From contig CBDFLJ010000001.1 in the NCBI GenBank assembly GCA_965248835.1, positions 384,001 to 448,000 on the forward strand: 64,000 nt of DNA, read 5' to 3'. The DNA comes from Alphaproteobacteria bacterium. Its GTDB lineage: Bacteria; Pseudomonadota; Alphaproteobacteria; MPNO01. The notes beneath the pieces are model-generated. The model had not been told where the DNA came from. It did no database searches and saw nothing but the letters and a program-made list of their open reading frames with translations. A program made the translations under genes and the position numbers. Of this stretch, positions 59,346 through 64,000 are shown piece after piece; the stretch's first letter is position 1; every line of letters begins with the position of its first letter.

Positions 59346-60587
59346 TTACGCGACGGCGCTTTCGAAGACGCCATTGCGCATTACCCCGACACACGGGTTG
59401 ACGCCGAACCAGTAGCACAGCTCGGCCGGCTGCTCGATGTCCCAGAACGCCAAGTCGGCGCGCTTGCCGATCTCGATCGTGCCGCGGTCCGCAGCCATGC
59501 CAAGGGCGCGCGCGGCAACGCGGGTCACCCCGGCCAGCGCCTCCTCCGGCGTCAGCCGGAATATGGTGCAGGCCATGTTGAGCATCAGCAGCAGCGACGG
59601 CGTGGGCGAGGACCCCGGGTTGAAGTCGGTCGCGACCGCGATTTCCACGCCGCGGCTGCGCAGCGCCTCGATCGGCGGCATCCTGGTCTCGCGCAGGGTG
59701 TAGAAGGCTCCGGGCAGAAGGACGGCGACGGTCCCGGCGTCGGCCATGGCGGCGACTCCCTCCTCGGAGGTGTATTCCAGATGATCGGCCGACAGCGCGC
59801 CATAGCGGGCGGCAAGCGCCGCCCCACCCAGGTCGGAGAGCTGGTCGGCGTGCAGCTTGACCCTGAGGTCGTGATCGCGCGCCGCGGCGAAGACCCGCTC
59901 GGTCTGCCGGGGGGTGAAGCCGATGGTCTCGCAGAACGCATCCAACGCATCGGCAAGCCCCGCCTTGGCGACCGCCGGCAGCATGTCGCCGATCACCAGT
60001 TTGATATAGTCGTCCTGGCGTCCGTTATATTCCGGCGGCAGGGCATGGGCGCCAAGGAAGGTCGTGGCCACGCTGACCGGCAGCGCCTCGCCGAGCCGGC
60101 GCGCCACCCGAAGCTGCTTGAGTTCGCTCGCCCTTTCAAGCCCGTAGCCGGACTTGATCTCGACGGTGGTCACCCCCTCTTTTATCAGATGACGCAGCCG
60201 CGGCAGGGCGGCCTCGAACAGCGCCTCGTCGTCCGCCTCCCTCGTCGCCCGCATGGTCGAGACGATGCCGCCGCCGGCCTGGGCGATCTGCTCATAGCTC
60301 GCTCCGTTGAGCCGCATCTCGAACTCGCCGGCGCGGTTGCCGCCGAAAACCAGGTGGGTGTGGCAGTCGACCAGCCCCGGGGTCACCCAGCGCCCGTCGG
60401 TACGATGCACCTCATGCGCGCAGGTTTCCGGCGGGCCGGGCAAGGCGGACGGCGCGCCGACCCAGGCAATTCGGCCGCCCTTGACCGCGACCGCCGCATC
60501 GGTGACCGCGCCATAGGGCTCGCCGCCCGGCACCATCGTCGCGATATTGACGTTGATCCAAAGACTGTCCCAGATCTCGTTCGCCAT
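59346..60587 (-). CDS. hutI: Imidazolonepropionase
   Basis: [27 protein letters not shown] and ATDFNPG motifs. Confidence 0.96.
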
Positions 60588-60852
60588 TATTCAACTCCCC
60601 CTGCGGCAACGAGATTACCCGAAACGGCGCGGCTTGGCAGGCCTGGAGCACGTTCCGAACATGCTCTGGCACCACCGCTGCGCTGCAGCTAGGCTGCGGC
60701 CATCCACCCCGAGATGCTCGCAGGGGCAATCGATGAGCGGCCCGACCCTGCTCGACGACAGATGAAAATCCTCGACCCGAAGTCGCGGATGAGCCGACGG
60801 TCCATGGCGGGATCGGCGGGATGGCTGGCGCCTGGATGATCGGAGGCGCGCG

Positions 60853-61647
60853 ATGACCGAGCCGGTCTATGCGTTCTCCGCCGGCACGGCGCCCGTCCTG
60901 GTCAGCATCCCCCACGACGGCCGCCTGATCCCGCCGGAAATCGGCGGCCGCATGACCGGGGAAGCGCTGCGCATTCCCGATACCGACTGGCATGTCGGCC
61001 GGCTATACGATTTCGCCGGCATGATGGGCGCTTCGGTGCTGGCCGCGCGCTATTCGCGTTATGTCGTGGACCTCAACCGCAACCCCGCAGGCGAGGCGCT
61101 CTATCCCGGTGCGGACAATACCGAGATCGTGCCGTCCAGCACCTTTGACCGCGCGCCGATCTACCGCGCCGGCGAGGCGCCGGACGAGGCCGAGATCGCC
61201 GTGCGGGTGCGGGACTACTGGCAGCCCTACCACGACCGGCTCGGTACGGAGATCGCGGCGCTGAAGGACCGTTACGGGCGCGCCGTGGTCTTCGATGCTC
61301 ATTCGATCCGGTCGGTGGTGCCTCGGTTCTTCGAGGGCACGCTGCCGGATTTCAACTTCGGCACGGCATCGGGGGCCAGCGCCGATGCGGGACTGGCTGC
61401 GCGCGCGTTCGCGGTCCTGGATGCGGCTGCGGGCTACACGGCGGCCGACAACGGCCGGTTCACCGGCGGCTACATCACCCGGCGTTACGGCGCGCCAGAA
61501 GACGGCGTGCACGCGATCCAGCTCGAGCTGTCGCAGCGCACCTACATGGACGAGATCTATCCGTTCGACTACCGGCCCGATCTAGCCGGCACGGTGCAAC
61601 CGATCCTGCGCGACCTGCTGGCGGCGATTCTCGAATGGGCGGGATAA
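60853..61647 (+). CDS. hutG: N-formylglutamate deformylase
   Basis: SIPHDG, DTDWHV, SRYVVDLNR, DAHSI, GGYITR and HAIQLE motifs. Confidence 0.93.
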   Translation: MTEPVYAFSAGTAPVLVSIPHDGRLIPPEIGGRMTGEALRIPDTDWHVGRLYDFAGMMGASVLAARYSRYVVDLNRNPAGEALYPGADNTEIVPSSTFDRAPIYRAGEAPDEAEIAVRVRDYWQPYHDRLGTEIAALKDRYGRAVVFDAHSIRSVVPRFFEGTLPDFNFGTASGASADAGLAARAFAVLDAAAGYTAADNGRFTGGYITRRYGAPEDGVHAIQLELSQRTYMDEIYPFDYRPDLAGTVQPILRDLLAAILEWAG

Positions 61648-63008
61648 ACCGGAGCCTGACCTTCGCGCACCTGTCCACGCCCGACGGCTGGCTGTCGCCC
61701 GGCCGGGTGGATATCGAAGACGACGGAACGATCGCCGCGGTCGCGGCCGGCGATGCCGCGTTTGCGTTGCCCGGCACCGCGCTTGCCGGGATGCCCAACC
61801 TGCACAGTCACGCCTTTCAGCGGGCGATGGCTGGGCTCACCGAGCGGGCCGGCCCCGGCGAGGACAGCTTCTGGACTTGGCGCGAGGTGATGTACGGCTT
61901 CGTCGGCCGCCTCGAGCCCGAGGATGTCGAGGCGATCGCCGCACAGCTCTATGTCGAGATGCTCAAGGCCGGCTATACCGCGGTCGGCGAGTTCCACTAT
62001 CTCCACCACGACCGCGACGGCACGCCCTACGGCGATGTCGCGGAGATGGCCGGGCGCGTAACCGCCGCCGCGCGGCGCGCGGGGATCGCGATCACGCTGT
62101 TGCCGGTGCTCTACGATTCGGGTGGATTCGGCGGGGCGCCGCCGGCCGGGGAACAGCGCCGGTTCCTCAACGGTGCCGATCGGCTGCTGCGGATCATCGA
62201 GACCATGACGGAGCGCCACCGGACCGATGCCGAGGTGCGCGTCGGGCTCGCACCCCATAGCCTGCGCGCGGCGAGCCCTGCGGCGCTGGAGACCGCGATC
62301 GCGGGACTCGATGGCCTTGACCCGTCCGCGCCGATCCACATCCACATCGCCGAACAGACCAGGGAGGTCGAGGATTGCCTTGCGTGGTCGGGCAAGCGCC
62401 CCGTCGCCTGGCTGTTCGACAACCATCCCATCGGCCCGCGCTGGTGCCTGGTCCATGCTACCCACATCGATCCGGACGAGAGGCGCGCGCTGTCCGGAAG
62501 CGGCGCGGTCGCCGGCCTGTGTCCCACGACGGAGGCCAATCTCGGCGACGGCATCTTCCCGCTCCAGGCGTTCCTTGCCGATGGCGGCCGATTCGGCGTC
62601 GGCTCGGACAGCCACGTCTCGGTCAGCCCGGTCGAGGAGCTGCGCTGGCTCGAATACGCTCAGCGCCTGACCACGCGCCGCCGGACCGTAAGCGCACCGC
62701 CGGAAGGCTCGAACGGTGCGCGGCTCTATCATGAGGCGATATCGGCCGGCGCCCAGGCGCTGGGGCGTCGCGCCGGGGGCATCGCGCCGGGCAACCGCGC
62801 GGACATCATCGTCCTCGACCACGCCCACCCGCTGCTCGTCGGCAGAACCGGTGATCGATTGCTCGACAGCTACCTGTTCGCCGGCAACGAAAACCTGGTC
62901 CGCGACGTCATGGTCGGCGGCCGCTGGGTGGTGCGTGAGGGCCGGCACGAGAACGAGCAGCCGATCGCGCAAGCCTATCGCCGGGTGATTTCCCGGCTCT
63001 TCGGCTGA
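61635..63008 (+). CDS. hutF: Formimidoylglutamate deiminase
   Basis: PNLHSHAFQRAMAG, EFHYLHH, APHSLRA, HIHIAEQ and CPTTEANLGDG motifs. Confidence 0.95.
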   Translation: MGGINRSLTFAHLSTPDGWLSPGRVDIEDDGTIAAVAAGDAAFALPGTALAGMPNLHSHAFQRAMAGLTERAGPGEDSFWTWREVMYGFVGRLEPEDVEAIAAQLYVEMLKAGYTAVGEFHYLHHDRDGTPYGDVAEMAGRVTAAARRAGIAITLLPVLYDSGGFGGAPPAGEQRRFLNGADRLLRIIETMTERHRTDAEVRVGLAPHSLRAASPAALETAIAGLDGLDPSAPIHIHIAEQTREVEDCLAWSGKRPVAWLFDNHPIGPRWCLVHATHIDPDERRALSGSGAVAGLCPTTEANLGDGIFPLQAFLADGGRFGVGSDSHVSVSPVEELRWLEYAQRLTTRRRTVSAPPEGSNGARLYHEAISAGAQALGRRAGGIAPGNRADIIVLDHAHPLLVGRTGDRLLDSYLFAGNENLVRDVMVGGRWVVREGRHENEQPIAQAYRRVISRLFG

Positions 63009-63080
63009 GAATCGATCAAGGATGCCCCGCCGGCAGTGTTGCAGAAGGGCTGGTGTCAGCGACAGTGCTCCAAAACGGGC

Positions 63081-63109
63081 TTGTCGAGGGAATTGATTGG
63101 CGGCATAAA
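63081..63109 (+). promoter_or_regulatory. Putative sigma70-type promoter of the small structured transcript
   Basis: (C)TTGTCG-N17-CATAAA in an AT-richer patch; transcription start predicted near 63116. Confidence 0.4.
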
Positions 63110-63146
63110 GGTCACCTCAATGCAACAACGGAAAGGAGGTGATCCA

Positions 63147-63218
63147 GTGTCTCATTGTCGCCAACCGCGGACGCGGGTGACCTGGGTCTCCACCTATCGG
63201 GGGCCGTCCGTCGCCTGA
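63147..63218 (+). CDS. Putative 23-aa small peptide MSHCRQPRTRVTWVSTYRGPSVA
   Basis: GTG start 6 nt after AGGAGGT; TGA at 63216-63218; an in-frame ATG also sits at 63120. Confidence 0.45.
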   Translation: MSHCRQPRTRVTWVSTYRGPSVA

Positions 63219-63258
63219 TGCGACGCTCGCGGACACTGCGTTCCGCGGTTAGACAATG

Positions 63259-63288
63259 TAAGGGCCGCCCGGTTACGGGCGGCCCTTA
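63259..63288. terminator. Probable bidirectional intrinsic terminator
   Basis: Perfect 13-bp stem TAAGGGCCGCCCG-gtta-CGGGCGGCCCTTA between convergent units; only a weak U tract. Confidence 0.75.
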
Positions 63289-63293
63289 TCATT

Positions 63294-64000
63294 TCAGGCC
63301 GCGGCCTTGGCCGCGATCATCGGCAGGGTGATGACCAGCAGCTCGGTGTCGGTTTCGGCGGCGAAGGTGAAGGTCTCGCCGGGGTCGAGCCGGATGGCGG
63401 TGTAGCGGCGGTAACCATCGCCCTCGCCTTGGGTGACGAAGATCAGCCTGCGGTCGGGCGAGGCGGAAAACGTCTCCGACGCCCCACGATCGATTGCGAA
63501 CTGGTCGAGCGCCATGCCGCGCTCCGAAAAACTGCCGAGCGGCTTGCCGCGGACACTGCTTTGGCCCGCGAGCGCCGACCAGGCGAAGTTCTGCGGCTGC
63601 ATCACCACCGGGCCCTTGAACCGCGGCGCGGGGTAGGCGACGGGTTTGCCCATCACTTTCTGCCAGATCGCCTCGTAGCCGTCCTGGTTGCGCCGTCCCT
63701 CGCCCGAACCGTTGCGGCGGAAGACACCGCCCTCGAAAGTCCCTTCGGCCTCAAGCGCGCCGTGGCCGGCCTTGACCTGTGAGCGGCTGAGATAGCCCTG
63801 GCCGCTCGCCCCGCCGAATTGGAGGACCAGGACCAGCCGGTCGCTGTCACCTTCCTGCGGACCGTAATGGACGCCCTCGGGGAAATAGCCCACCTCGCCG
63901 GCATCGATGGTCAGCCGCGGGGCGATCGGTACGCTGCCCTCGATGCAGAACCGCACCTGGTCCCACGGATGGCGGTGGCGCGGGGAGAAGAAGGACGCGC
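63294..64000 (-). CDS. Cupin-like protein (5' end outside the window)
   Basis: Frame open to the window edge: ...FFSPRHRHPWDQVRF..EG...GYFPEGVHYGPQ. Confidence 0.7.
   Translation of the reverse strand, partial: ASFFSPRHRHPWDQVRFCIEGSVPIAPRLTIDAGEVGYFPEGVHYGPQEGDSDRLVLVLQFGGASGQGYLSRSQVKAGHGALEAEGTFEGGVFRRNGSGEGRRNQDGYEAIWQKVMGKPVAYPAPRFKGPVVMQPQNFAWSALAGQSSVRGKPLGSFSERGMALDQFAIDRGASETFSASPDRRLIFVTQGEGDGYRRYTAIRLDPGETFTFAAETDTELLVITLPMIAAKAAA

What the first reader, a model, noticed from the sequence alone, without database searches (positions are those of the whole stretch)
63131..63218. Stand-alone mini-transcript with a 17-nt perfect complement to the 16S rRNA 3' end ('super Shine-Dalgarno') leading a 23-codon ORF
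Seen: GAAAGGAGGTGATCCAG (63131-63147) follows an unstructured A/C-rich stretch and its last G is the first base of a GTG that opens MSHCRQPRTRVTWVSTYRGPSVA*. The unit has its own putative promoter (63081-63109) and terminator (63259-63288) and leads no downstream gene, since the next gene is convergent. Established: alphaproteobacterial 16S rRNA typically ends ...GCGGCUGGAUCACCUCCUUUC(U), so this is its exact reverse complement and reaches into the base of helix 45; ordinary SD duplexes are about 4-9 nt. The host 16S gene is not in this window. Inference: pairing this long would be expected to hold 30S subunits rather than allow efficient initiation. The unit could be a ribosome-binding, titrating or hibernation RNA, a protector or maturation guide for the 16S 3' end, or a tightly gated peptide gene. 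The peptide is basic and not hydrophobic, so it does not look like a classic membrane type I toxin. I do not recognise a named family for it.
Basis: partly seen in the sequence, partly recalled or inferred. Interest (0 to 1): 0.85.

Follow-up and report, generated by a model that had tools for sequence, protein, structure and literature searches.

The report
Known ribosome-binding small mRNA (CC2171/rre)
This is a real but already described alphaproteobacterial mini-gene: a short RNA whose start region pairs with the whole free tail of the ribosome's 16S RNA and carries a tiny reading frame, and whose role in the cell is still unknown.

Summary
GAAAGGAGGTGATCCAG (63131-63147) is the exact complement of this genome's own 16S rRNA 3' end. 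Its last G opens a GTG-started 23-codon ORF, and the unit stands alone between a conserved promoter-like motif and a covarying terminator hairpin.

It is not new. The locus is a full-length member of Rfam RF01867 ("CC2171" Caulobacter sRNA; 102.1 bits, cut-off 75). It also has the defining architecture of the rre small mRNAs published for Bradyrhizobium japonicum (rreB; Hahn et al., RNA Biol 2017, PMC5711450): a 17-nt complement ending in the G of GTG, then a short ORF. That paper showed 30S co-sedimentation, weak translation and start-codon-dependent turnover. It called the function elusive.

- Across about 130 homologous loci the start codon (GTG/ATG/TTG), the stop (all three kinds), the frame and the ORF length are conserved.
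- The peptide shows no excess of synonymous change.
- An internal copy of the 16S tail (GACCUGGGUCUCCACC) can pair with the extended Shine-Dalgarno sequence (SD). That pairing excludes Rfam's long-range helix.
- None of the papers I could read links RF01867 to rre.

Verdict: already known; low interest.

The parts
63080..63108 (+). Promoter-like element: CTTGTC (63080-63085), 17-nt spacer, GCATAA (63103-63108). The transcription start site is inferred near 63115-63117 and is not mapped.
   Evidence: Read. CTTG-N18-21-YATA lies 22-23 nt upstream of the 17-nt region in 28 of 51 homologous loci, and 20-24 nt upstream in 31 of 51. The E. coli-type scan did not call it.
63123..63130 (+). CA-rich unpaired leader CAACAACG. 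It is the first positions of the Rfam model and the proposed toehold for the 16S tail.
   Evidence: model positions 1-8. Nearly invariant in the alignment of 30 homologues. Mean P(unpaired) 0.78.
63131..63147 (+). 17-nt exact complement of the host 16S rRNA 3' end (the '17c-region', an extended Shine-Dalgarno). GGAGG lies at 63135-63139, 7 nt before the start codon.
   Evidence: Predicted duplex with the 16-nt 16S tail is -30.4 kcal/mol, against -8.7 to -11.6 for GGAGG, AGGAGG and AAGGAGGU. Invariant or nearly so in 30 homologues.
63147..63218 (+). Short ORF: GTG start, 23 codons (MSHCRQPRTRVTWVSTYRGPSVA), TGA stop at 63216-63218.
   Evidence: ORF length, frame, start function and stop function are conserved across homologues. 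The peptide matches no Pfam or NCBIfam family.
63153..63159 (+). 5' strand (CATTGTC) of the Rfam long-range helix. It pairs with 63252-63258.
   Evidence: alignment. 91.4% of cells paired, and 2 of 7 pairs change on both sides, in 20 homologues. Part of the minimum-energy fold of the window RNA.
63179..63194 (+). Internal mimic of the 16S 3' tail (GACCTGGGTCTCCACC), lying inside the ORF. It can pair with the extended SD (63135-63151). This is mutually exclusive with the long-range helix.
   Evidence: RNAalifold consensus of 20 homologues. 14 pairs, 95.7% of cells paired, 8 pairs vary on one side only, 1 is compensatory. Predicted duplex -24.1 kcal/mol. Forcing this helix costs 4.0 kcal/mol in the window RNA.
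63252..63258 (+). 3' strand (GACAATG) of the Rfam long-range helix.
63260..63294 (+). Terminator: stem AAGGGCCGCCCG / CGGGCGGCCCTT with loop GTTA (63260-63287), then TTATCATTT. It is shared with the convergent gene, which ends at 63294.
   Evidence: 12 pairs, 98.8% of cells paired, 7 pairs with changes on both sides.
63123..63286 (+). Extent of the full-length match to Rfam RF01867 (CC2171 sRNA).
   Evidence: 102.1 bits, gathering score 75, E 3.8e-22, model positions 1-159 of 159. It is the single copy in the genome.

Best explanation
The locus is this bacterium's copy of the CC2171 (Rfam RF01867) / rre small mRNA. It is a stand-alone transcript of roughly 170 nt, made from its own RpoD-like promoter and ended by an intrinsic-type hairpin.

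Proposed mechanism, in order:
1. The unpaired CA-rich leader and the first bases of the 17-nt region act as a toehold for the single-stranded 3' tail of 16S rRNA.
2. Pairing then spreads over up to 17 bp (about -30 kcal/mol, roughly three times a normal SD). This fixes a 30S subunit on the RNA with the GTG seven bases after GGAGG.
3. The over-long duplex and the GTG start keep initiation slow, so the 23-codon frame is translated only weakly.
4. Passage of a ribosome to a stop at a conserved distance matters, probably by unfolding the RNA and triggering its decay. The peptide itself matters less.

The RNA can also mask its own SD with an internal copy of the 16S tail, as an alternative to the long-range helix that leaves the SD free.

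Shown here: family membership, exact complementarity to the host 16S, conservation of the start codon, frame, length, stop and helices. Taken from published work on the analogue rreB: 30S binding, weak translation and ribosome-dependent turnover. Inferred: the toehold order of events, the two-fold switch, and the idea that the ribosome's transit is the selected feature. The physiological role remains unknown.
For: Family and 16S match:
- Full-length RF01867 match at 102.1 bits against a cut-off of 75. One copy per genome.
- Exact 17-nt complement to the host's own 16S end. The 17-mer occurs nowhere else in the genome.
- Predicted duplex -30.4 kcal/mol against -8.7 to -11.6 for ordinary SDs.

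Distribution:
- RF01867 at E<=0.001 in 32 of 41 related genomes and 22 of 151 class-wide genomes.
- The exact 19-nt pattern occurs in 52 of 114 same-class genomes and 0 of 286 other genomes of the phylum. There is one copy in each, and the backwards control gave 0. One of the 52, G557, is an unpublished genome.

Conserved ORF:
- All 51 covariance-model (CM)-found loci have a start codon at the same place: 37 GTG, 12 ATG, 2 TTG.
- Their ORFs are 18-32 codons long (sd 2.1, against 43.5 and 37.8 in the other two frames). All three stop codons are used.
- In loci found by the 19-nt pattern alone, 76 of 79 have a frame-0 ORF of 14-35 codons, against 26 of 78 and 25 of 78 in the other frames.
- The distance from the start to the internal CTGG motif is a multiple of three (33, 36, 39, 42 or 48 nt; mostly 36, 39 and 42) in 50 of 56 loci.

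Peptide not constrained:
- The synonymous fraction in frame 0 is 0.16-0.39, against 0.26-0.28 expected for random changes. It is not above the other frames.

Helices and a 16S variant:
- In G028 the 16S end is canonical, and the two A-to-G changes in its RNA would both keep pairing as G:U.

Stand-alone gene:
- The upstream hutF-like gene neighbours the element in 0 of 50 other loci. The downstream gene does so in 3 of 50.

Published (PMC5711450, Results and Discussion read):
- rreB has the same 17-nt region ending in the G of GTG.
- It co-sediments with 30S and is weakly translated.
- Its half-life rises from 10 to 37 min when GUG is changed to UAG.

CC2171 RNA was detected by Northern blot in Methylorubrum extorquens (bioRxiv 10.1101/2022.01.24.477521, passages read).
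Against: - No expression evidence exists for this organism. No RNA run holds the locus. The start site is inferred, and the consensus promoter and terminator scans were negative.
- All wet-lab evidence comes from B. japonicum rreB. That gene has a 14-codon ORF, and its peptide is unrelated.
- The one rreB-like locus I scanned (L074, 14 codons, beside a tRNA) did not reach the RF01867 gathering score. Transfer of the mechanism therefore rests on the shared 5' module.
- The SD:mimic helix is not the thermodynamic optimum. The long-range helix fold was as good or better in 18 of 20 sequences, and forcing the SD:mimic helix cost 0.1-21 kcal/mol. Its 5' strand never varies, so support is almost entirely one-sided changes, with one compensatory pair.
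- Across all 121 distinct loci the SD-to-downstream duplex beat shuffles at z<-2 in only 43.
- The lack of a synonymous excess could reflect overlapping RNA-structure constraints on a functional peptide.
- The homologues compared are related to each other and are not independent.
Confidence: 0.8

Rival explanations
1. The 23-residue peptide is the functional product. The over-long SD, the GTG start and the self-masking fold are only a tight gate on its synthesis.
For: Start, stop, frame and length are conserved. Peptides look alike within clades, for example MSHC...TW[IV] in the RF01867 group, MSHGSA..RS in Sphingomonadales-titled loci and MSR.ILERGVGT in Rhodobacterales-titled loci. Hahn et al. 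report clade-level conservation of RreB and RreR.
Against: No synonymous excess in frame 0 in any of four clades. There is no similarity between clades beyond Met-Ser. The best-conserved peptide motif (TW[IV]) is encoded by the nucleotides complementary to the invariant SD. No Pfam or NCBIfam family matches. Synthetic RreB and RreR were unstructured, and presumed RreB overproduction had no growth effect (PMC5711450).
Confidence: 0.15
2. The RNA is a 30S-binding riboregulator. It would act as a sponge, a hibernation factor, or a shield or guide for the 16S 3' tail, and the ORF is incidental.
For: The duplex covers the whole free 16S tail at about -30 kcal/mol. rreB co-sediments with 30S, and this depends on the 5' bases of the 17-nt region. 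The 17-nt region is invariant across the class.
Against: This reading does not explain the conserved start codon function, frame, length and stop. Twenty-fold overexpression of the ribosome-binding form did not change growth, and the authors state that ribosomes greatly outnumber the RNA. There is one copy per genome.
Confidence: 0.1
3. It is a classical trans-acting base-pairing small RNA, as its Rfam label 'Gene; sRNA' implies. It would regulate other mRNAs, and the SD-like stretch would be a seed for anti-SD-like or CU-rich targets.
For: Rfam files it as an sRNA. Its structure is conserved. It is a stand-alone unit with no conserved neighbours.
Against: The invariant stretch is the exact complement of the 16S tail over 17 nt, far more than a seed needs. 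ORF features are conserved. No target is known in the papers I could read.
Confidence: 0.05
4. It is a chance match or a relic of a 16S gene end.
For: None beyond the identity itself.
Against: Identity to the 16S stops exactly at the 17 nt. About 6e-4 chance occurrences are expected, and the only other copy is in the 16S gene itself. The element is conserved with its ORF and terminator in over 100 genomes.
Confidence: 0.01

Closest known systems
Rfam RF01867, 'CC2171' small RNA. By the preprint's account it was first found in Caulobacter crescentus by Landt et al. 2008, a paper I could not read. It was detected by Northern blot in Methylorubrum extorquens (bioRxiv 10.1101/2022.01.24.477521).
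   Same: Full-length covariance-model match above the curated cut-off (102.1 against 75 bits). The model consensus itself carries GAAAGGAGGUGAUCCAGUGUCUCAUUGUC, the long-range helix and the terminator. The control search rings in Caulobacter vibrioides only.
   Different: Nothing structural; this is a member. Rfam and the preprint treat it as a non-coding sRNA with no known condition or function. The preprint's text contains neither 'Shine-Dalgarno' nor 'rreB'.
[quoted passage not shown]
   Same: A 17-nt perfect complement to the 16S 3' end whose last base is the G of a GTG start. A short ORF. A stand-alone transcript of about 165 nt with an RpoD-like promoter and a terminator. The SD is partly masked by a downstream hairpin with a free 5' seed. 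[quoted passage not shown]
   Different: The ORF is 23 codons here against 14. There is no peptide similarity. The genomic neighbours differ (histidine-utilisation genes and a cupin-like gene here; tRNA-Gly and a sensor gene there). A 14-codon rreB-like locus (L074) does not reach the RF01867 cut-off. The paper's text mentions neither Rfam nor Landt.
rreR of the Rhodobacter/Roseobacter group (same paper)
   Same: The same extended SD fused to a GTG start, and a short ORF. Loci of this type appear in my pattern scan (MSR.ILERGVGT, 18 codons).
   Different: 18 codons, an unrelated peptide, and not an RF01867 hit at the gathering score (L087).
Extended SD of rpsU in Flavobacteriales (PMC9976891; abstract seen in a search listing only)
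   Same: An unusually long SD is used so that translation depends on the state of the 16S 3' tail. This is a works-like comparison only.
   Different: That SD leads a real ribosomal-protein gene in another phylum, where the anti-SD is normally sequestered. No homology.

Membership tests
Rfam RF01867 (CC2171 sRNA) | Covariance-model score at or above the curated gathering score (75 bits), over the full model | tested here: met
   102.1 bits, E 3.8e-22, model positions 1-159 of 159, window 63123-63286 plus strand. Same result in the whole-genome search.
Rfam RF01867 (CC2171 sRNA) | Consensus helices (long-range helix and terminator) supported in homologues | tested here: met
   Terminator: 98.8% of cells paired, 7 of 12 pairs change on both sides. 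Long-range helix: 91.4% paired, 2 of 7 pairs change on both sides, with slid controls at 22-41% paired. The inner hairpins were not counted.
Rfam RF01867 (CC2171 sRNA) | Expressed as a discrete small transcript | not testable with these tools
   No RNA run holds the locus. Northern evidence exists only for other species.
rre small mRNAs (Hahn et al. 2017) | At least 16 nt of perfect complementarity to the organism's own 16S rRNA 3' end | tested here: met
   17 nt against the genome's own 16S end.
rre small mRNAs (Hahn et al. 2017) | The last base of the complementary region is the first base of the start codon of a short ORF | tested here: met
   G63147 is both base 17 of the region and the G of GTG. 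The ORF is 23 codons.
rre small mRNAs (Hahn et al. 2017) | Stand-alone small transcript, not a leader of a downstream gene | tested here: met
   A terminator follows directly and the next gene is convergent. Neighbours are not conserved: 0 of 50 and 3 of 50.
rre small mRNAs (Hahn et al. 2017) | Strong binding to 30S subunits, weak translation, start-codon-dependent turnover | not testable with these tools
   These are bench properties shown for rreB only.
Type I toxin mRNA | Short hydrophobic membrane peptide plus a cis or nearby antisense RNA | tested here: not met
   The peptide is basic with no hydrophobic stretch (read). No antisense unit is evident. The minus-strand ORF 63117-63236 has no support.
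Leader peptide / attenuator | Short ORF upstream of, and co-oriented with, a regulated gene | tested here: not met
   The downstream gene is convergent, and the context is not conserved.

The most novel reading that the evidence does not exclude
CC2171/rre RNAs are ribosome-state sensors rather than peptide genes or sponges. The transcript first masks its super-SD with a built-in copy of the 16S tail. It then refolds, or is invaded through the CA-rich toehold, so that a free 30S subunit is captured. The conserved 18-26-codon frame serves only as a measured track: its traversal by a ribosome unfolds the RNA and destroys it. The RNA's level would then report how many 30S tails are free and initiation-competent. 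None of the papers I could read proposes this, nor that the ORF is kept in length and frame without selection on its amino acids. The class may also reach outside Alphaproteobacteria, since two Burkholderiales-titled metagenome contigs carry a homologous-looking unit.
Probability: 0.2. Interest if true: 0.6.

Novelty: already known. Interest (0 to 1): 0.25.

Why it matters
The element itself is ordinary for an alphaproteobacterium and would be labelled by any Rfam scan. What remains open is the role of a one-copy small RNA that is kept across the class. The exact pattern occurs in 52 of 114 sampled same-class genomes and in none of 286 others of the phylum. It pairs with the entire free tail of 16S rRNA. 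First, two bodies of literature (the 'CC2171 sRNA' of Rfam and the Caulobacter/Methylorubrum work, and the 'rre' small mRNAs of Bradyrhizobium) describe the same kind of gene without citing each other in the texts I could read. Second, comparative data point to the ribosome's passage, not the peptide, as the selected feature. That can be tested with simple recoding and frameshift mutants.

Tried and rejected
- Expression in this organism: the look-up of sequencing runs listed four holders from one study, and no RNA holder was listed.
- Consensus promoter and terminator scan: nothing called. I rely on cross-species conservation instead.
- Covariation with 16S: I wanted 16S ends from genomes whose RNA departs from the 17-mer (G029, G032, G021, G027, G028). 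Only G028 has the 16S end assembled, so this test has n=1.
- 16S relic: rejected.
- Other extended SDs in the genome: the two other 13-nt partial matches lie inside coding sequence with no start codon at SD distance.
- Peptide family: none in Pfam or NCBIfam. The longer protein-search tools were not used because the peptide is under their length limits.
- Internal SD:mimic duplex as a class-wide feature: only 43 of 121 distinct loci beat mononucleotide shuffles at z<-2. I claim it for the RF01867-type group only.
- A third-position signature of coding was looked for and not found. Frame +2 gave a higher synonymous fraction (0.40-0.45), but that frame is not open, so I read this as a by-product.
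- Literature: searches for CC2171, RF01867, rreB/rreR, the paper's title phrase and a Caulobacter ribosome-profiling term set found no functional follow-up to Hahn et al. in the held library. Three later papers of the same group cite it (listing only).
- Schrader et al. 2014 (PMC4117421, passages read) say two ncRNAs predicted by Landt et al. are in fact translated. They name them only in Dataset S1, which I could not open because supplements are closed. CC2171 may or may not be one of them.
- Supplementary figures of Hahn et al. were likewise not seen.
- Row dropped: L053 was dropped before all counts. It was a second, 27.7-bit hit in G081 and lacks the SD module.
- Row with no ORF length: L092 ran off its locus, so it gave none.

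Full report
What is there.

The window reads GAAAGGAGGTGATCCAG at 63131-63147, and the last G starts GTG. The frame from that GTG gives MSHCRQPRTRVTWVSTYRGPSVA and stops at TGA 63216-63218.

The window is G000 C1:384001-448000. The only 16S gene found lies on the other contig, C2:466133-467632. It ends ...CCTGCGGCTGGATCACCTCCTTTCTAAGG. The 17-mer is the exact reverse complement of that end. One more G:U wobble is possible on each side, and all likeness to 16S then stops, so this is not a gene relic.

The 17-mer occurs twice in 4.89 Mb, here and in the 16S gene. Chance would give about 6e-4 occurrences (my arithmetic).

GGAGG sits seven bases before the GTG. The predicted duplex with the 16-nt free tail is -30.4 kcal/mol, against -8.7 to -11.6 for GGAGG, AGGAGG and AAGGAGGU.

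Upstream lies the histidine-utilisation gene hutF (61635-63008; 659 bits to a formimidoylglutamate deiminase model), preceded by hutG and hutI. Downstream, a convergent ORF with a weak Cupin_2 hit ends at 63294.

What it is.

A scan of 62800-63500 against Rfam gave a full-length match of 63123-63286 (plus strand) to RF01867, the 'CC2171' Caulobacter small RNA. The score was 102.1 bits against a gathering score of 75, with E 3.8e-22. The genome has one copy.

A full-text search then found Hahn et al., RNA Biol 2017 (PMC5711450). I read its Results and Discussion. It describes rreB of Bradyrhizobium japonicum as follows:
- It is a 165-nt stand-alone mRNA with a 17-nt region perfectly complementary to the 16S 3' end.
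- The last base of that region is the G of a GTG start, and a 14-codon ORF follows.
- The RNA sits in the ribosome pellet and co-sediments with 30S. This depends on the 5' bases of the 17-nt region.
- Changing GUG to UAG lengthens the half-life from 10 to 37 min.
- Overexpression does not affect growth, and the function 'remains elusive'.

The authors also report 16-17-nt analogues before short ORFs in Caulobacterales, Rhizobiales, Rhodobacterales (rreR, 18 codons) and Rhodospirillales. The window's element has every sequence-level feature of that class.

The paper's text contains neither 'Rfam' nor 'Landt'. The Methylorubrum preprint that confirmed CC2171 by Northern blot contains neither 'rreB' nor 'Shine-Dalgarno', and says the condition affecting the RNA is unknown. 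In the texts I could read, then, the two names are not connected. I could not read Landt et al. 2008.

How widespread it is.

- RF01867 matched at E<=0.001 in 32 of 41 related genomes, and over the cut-off in 24.
- It matched in 22 of 151 genomes drawn across the class, and over the cut-off in 6.
- The exact pattern GAAAGGAGGTGATCCNDTG, which excludes the 16S gene, was found once each in 52 of 114 same-class genomes and in 0 of 286 other genomes of the phylum. The reversed-pattern control gave 0. One of the 52, G557, is unpublished.
The 80 loci returned were almost all titled as Alphaproteobacteria.
- At Rfam's gathering score, only 3 of 18 such loci chosen to span the peptide types were RF01867 (Methylobacterium, Bosea, Roseiarcus). 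The Sphingomonas, Rhodobacterales, Mesorhizobium, Ancylobacter and 14-codon loci were not.

RF01867 is therefore one structural branch of a wider class that shares the 5' module.

Is the ORF real?

- In all 51 loci found by the covariance model, a start codon stands at the same place: 37 GTG, 12 ATG, 2 TTG. The second codon is serine in all but one, written with all four UCN codons.
- The ORF is 18-32 codons (median 23, sd 2.1). The distance to the first stop in the other two frames has sd 43.5 and 37.8. TGA, TAG and TAA are all used.
- In the 80 loci found from the 19-nt pattern alone, 76 of 79 have a frame-0 ORF of 14-35 codons, against 26 of 78 and 25 of 78 in the other frames.
- Where an internal CTGG[AG] motif is present (56 of 124 distinct loci), its distance from the start is a multiple of three (33, 36, 39, 42 or 48 nt; mostly 36, 39 and 42) in 50 of 56. 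Insertions and deletions have therefore kept the frame.
- These sequences are related to each other, so the counts overstate independence. The pattern nevertheless holds across clades.

Against a selected peptide:
- In four clades of equal ORF length, variability is about equal at the three codon positions.
- The synonymous share of single-base codon differences in frame 0 is 0.24, 0.39, 0.16 and 0.30. That is no higher than the 0.26-0.28 expected from random changes, nor than the other frames.
- Peptides of different clades share only Met-Ser.
- No Pfam or NCBIfam family matches.

My reading is that an ORF of set length is selected, and its amino acids hardly at all.

Structure.

The terminator hairpin (63260-63287) has 7 of 12 pairs with changes on both sides.

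Rfam's long-range helix pairs CATTGTC (63153-63159) with GACAATG (63252-63258). It is 91.4% paired in 20 homologues, with two compensatory pairs, and it is part of the minimum-energy fold.

RNAalifold on the same 20 sequences instead paired the SD region with a downstream stretch, GACCTGGGTCTCCACC (63179-63194). Its consensus, GAYCUGGAUCNUCGCC, repeats CUGGAUC of the 16S tail. This helix has 14 pairs and 95.7% of cells paired. Eight pairs vary on the 3' side only, always keeping a pair, and one is compensatory (CCUG with CAGG in L039).

The two helices cross, so they are alternatives. By energy, the long-range fold is as good or better in 18 of 20 sequences. Forcing the SD:mimic helix costs 4.0 kcal/mol in the window RNA and 0.1-21 kcal/mol overall. 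The mimic is transcribed first, so a transient masked state is plausible, but that is inference.

Hahn et al. predicted a similar partial masking for rreB, with a free 5' seed. The mimic also explains the best-conserved peptide motif, TW[IV].

Across all 121 distinct loci, the SD-to-downstream duplex beat shuffles at z<-2 in only 43. I therefore limit this claim to the RF01867-type group.

Other checks.

- Neighbours are not conserved: hutF-like in 0 of 50 other loci, and the downstream gene in 3 of 50.
- A CTTG-N18-21-YATA motif lies 20-24 nt before the 17-nt region in 31 of 51 loci. The E. coli-type scan called no promoter or terminator.
- In the one genome with a variant RNA and an assembled 16S end (G028), the 16S is canonical and both A-to-G changes in the RNA would pair as G:U.
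- No RNA-seq run holds this locus.

Verdict.

The interpretation that the duplex holds 30S and gates a tiny ORF agrees with published experiments on an analogue. The claim that no family exists is wrong. The element is an ordinary member of RF01867 and of the rre class, so it is already known. The physiological role of the class is still open, which keeps a little interest.

Noticed in passing
L101 (Burkholderiales-titled MAG contig) and L119 (Bordetella-titled MAG contig), at the pattern sites listed: Two betaproteobacterial-titled contigs carry the same 17-nt 16S complement fused to GTG. Both are preceded by ...caaccac and a tgctacact -10-like box. Similar 24-26-codon ORFs follow (MRD.QG...), with a strong terminator hairpin about 135-175 nt downstream. 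L119 also holds a cspA thermoregulator hit, which I take (from recall, not a call) to fit a non-alpha origin. The exact pattern was found in 0 of 286 non-alpha genomes of the phylum sampled, so such units look rare. The published survey names only alphaproteobacterial orders.
   Followed up: partly
L070 (Gemmatimonadetes-titled MAG), L099 (Phycisphaerales-titled MAG), L079 (Rhizobacter-titled MAG): The pattern plus a short ORF (20, 12 and 27 codons) and a downstream hairpin also occur on contigs titled outside Alphaproteobacteria. L070 starts MSSD like the Mesorhizobium-type loci and may be a mis-binned contig.
   Followed up: no
L074:5038-5056 (uncultured alphaproteobacterial MAG): A 14-codon version (MSCFKRCHLAGIAR) lies about 170 nt from a tRNA gene. 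This matches the published description of rreB (14 codons, next to tRNA-Gly). It does not reach the RF01867 gathering score.
   Followed up: partly
L125 (Azospirillum-titled MAG) and L097 (Acetobacteraceae-titled MAG): Here the same 17-nt region and start codon open longer ORFs of 59 and 48 codons. These ORFs have a hydrophobic stretch, so they look like small secreted or membrane proteins rather than the usual 18-26-codon frame.
   Followed up: no
window 59346-63008: A histidine-utilisation cluster lies just upstream of the element: hutI (minus strand), hutG and hutF (NCBIfam equivalog hits). It is not linked to the element in other genomes (0 of 50 loci).
   Followed up: yes
ORFs of four clades of the class: The synonymous fraction is consistently highest in frame +2 (0.40-0.45), although that frame is not open. 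This may reflect transition-type changes in stems falling at frame-0 second positions. It is unexplained.
   Followed up: no
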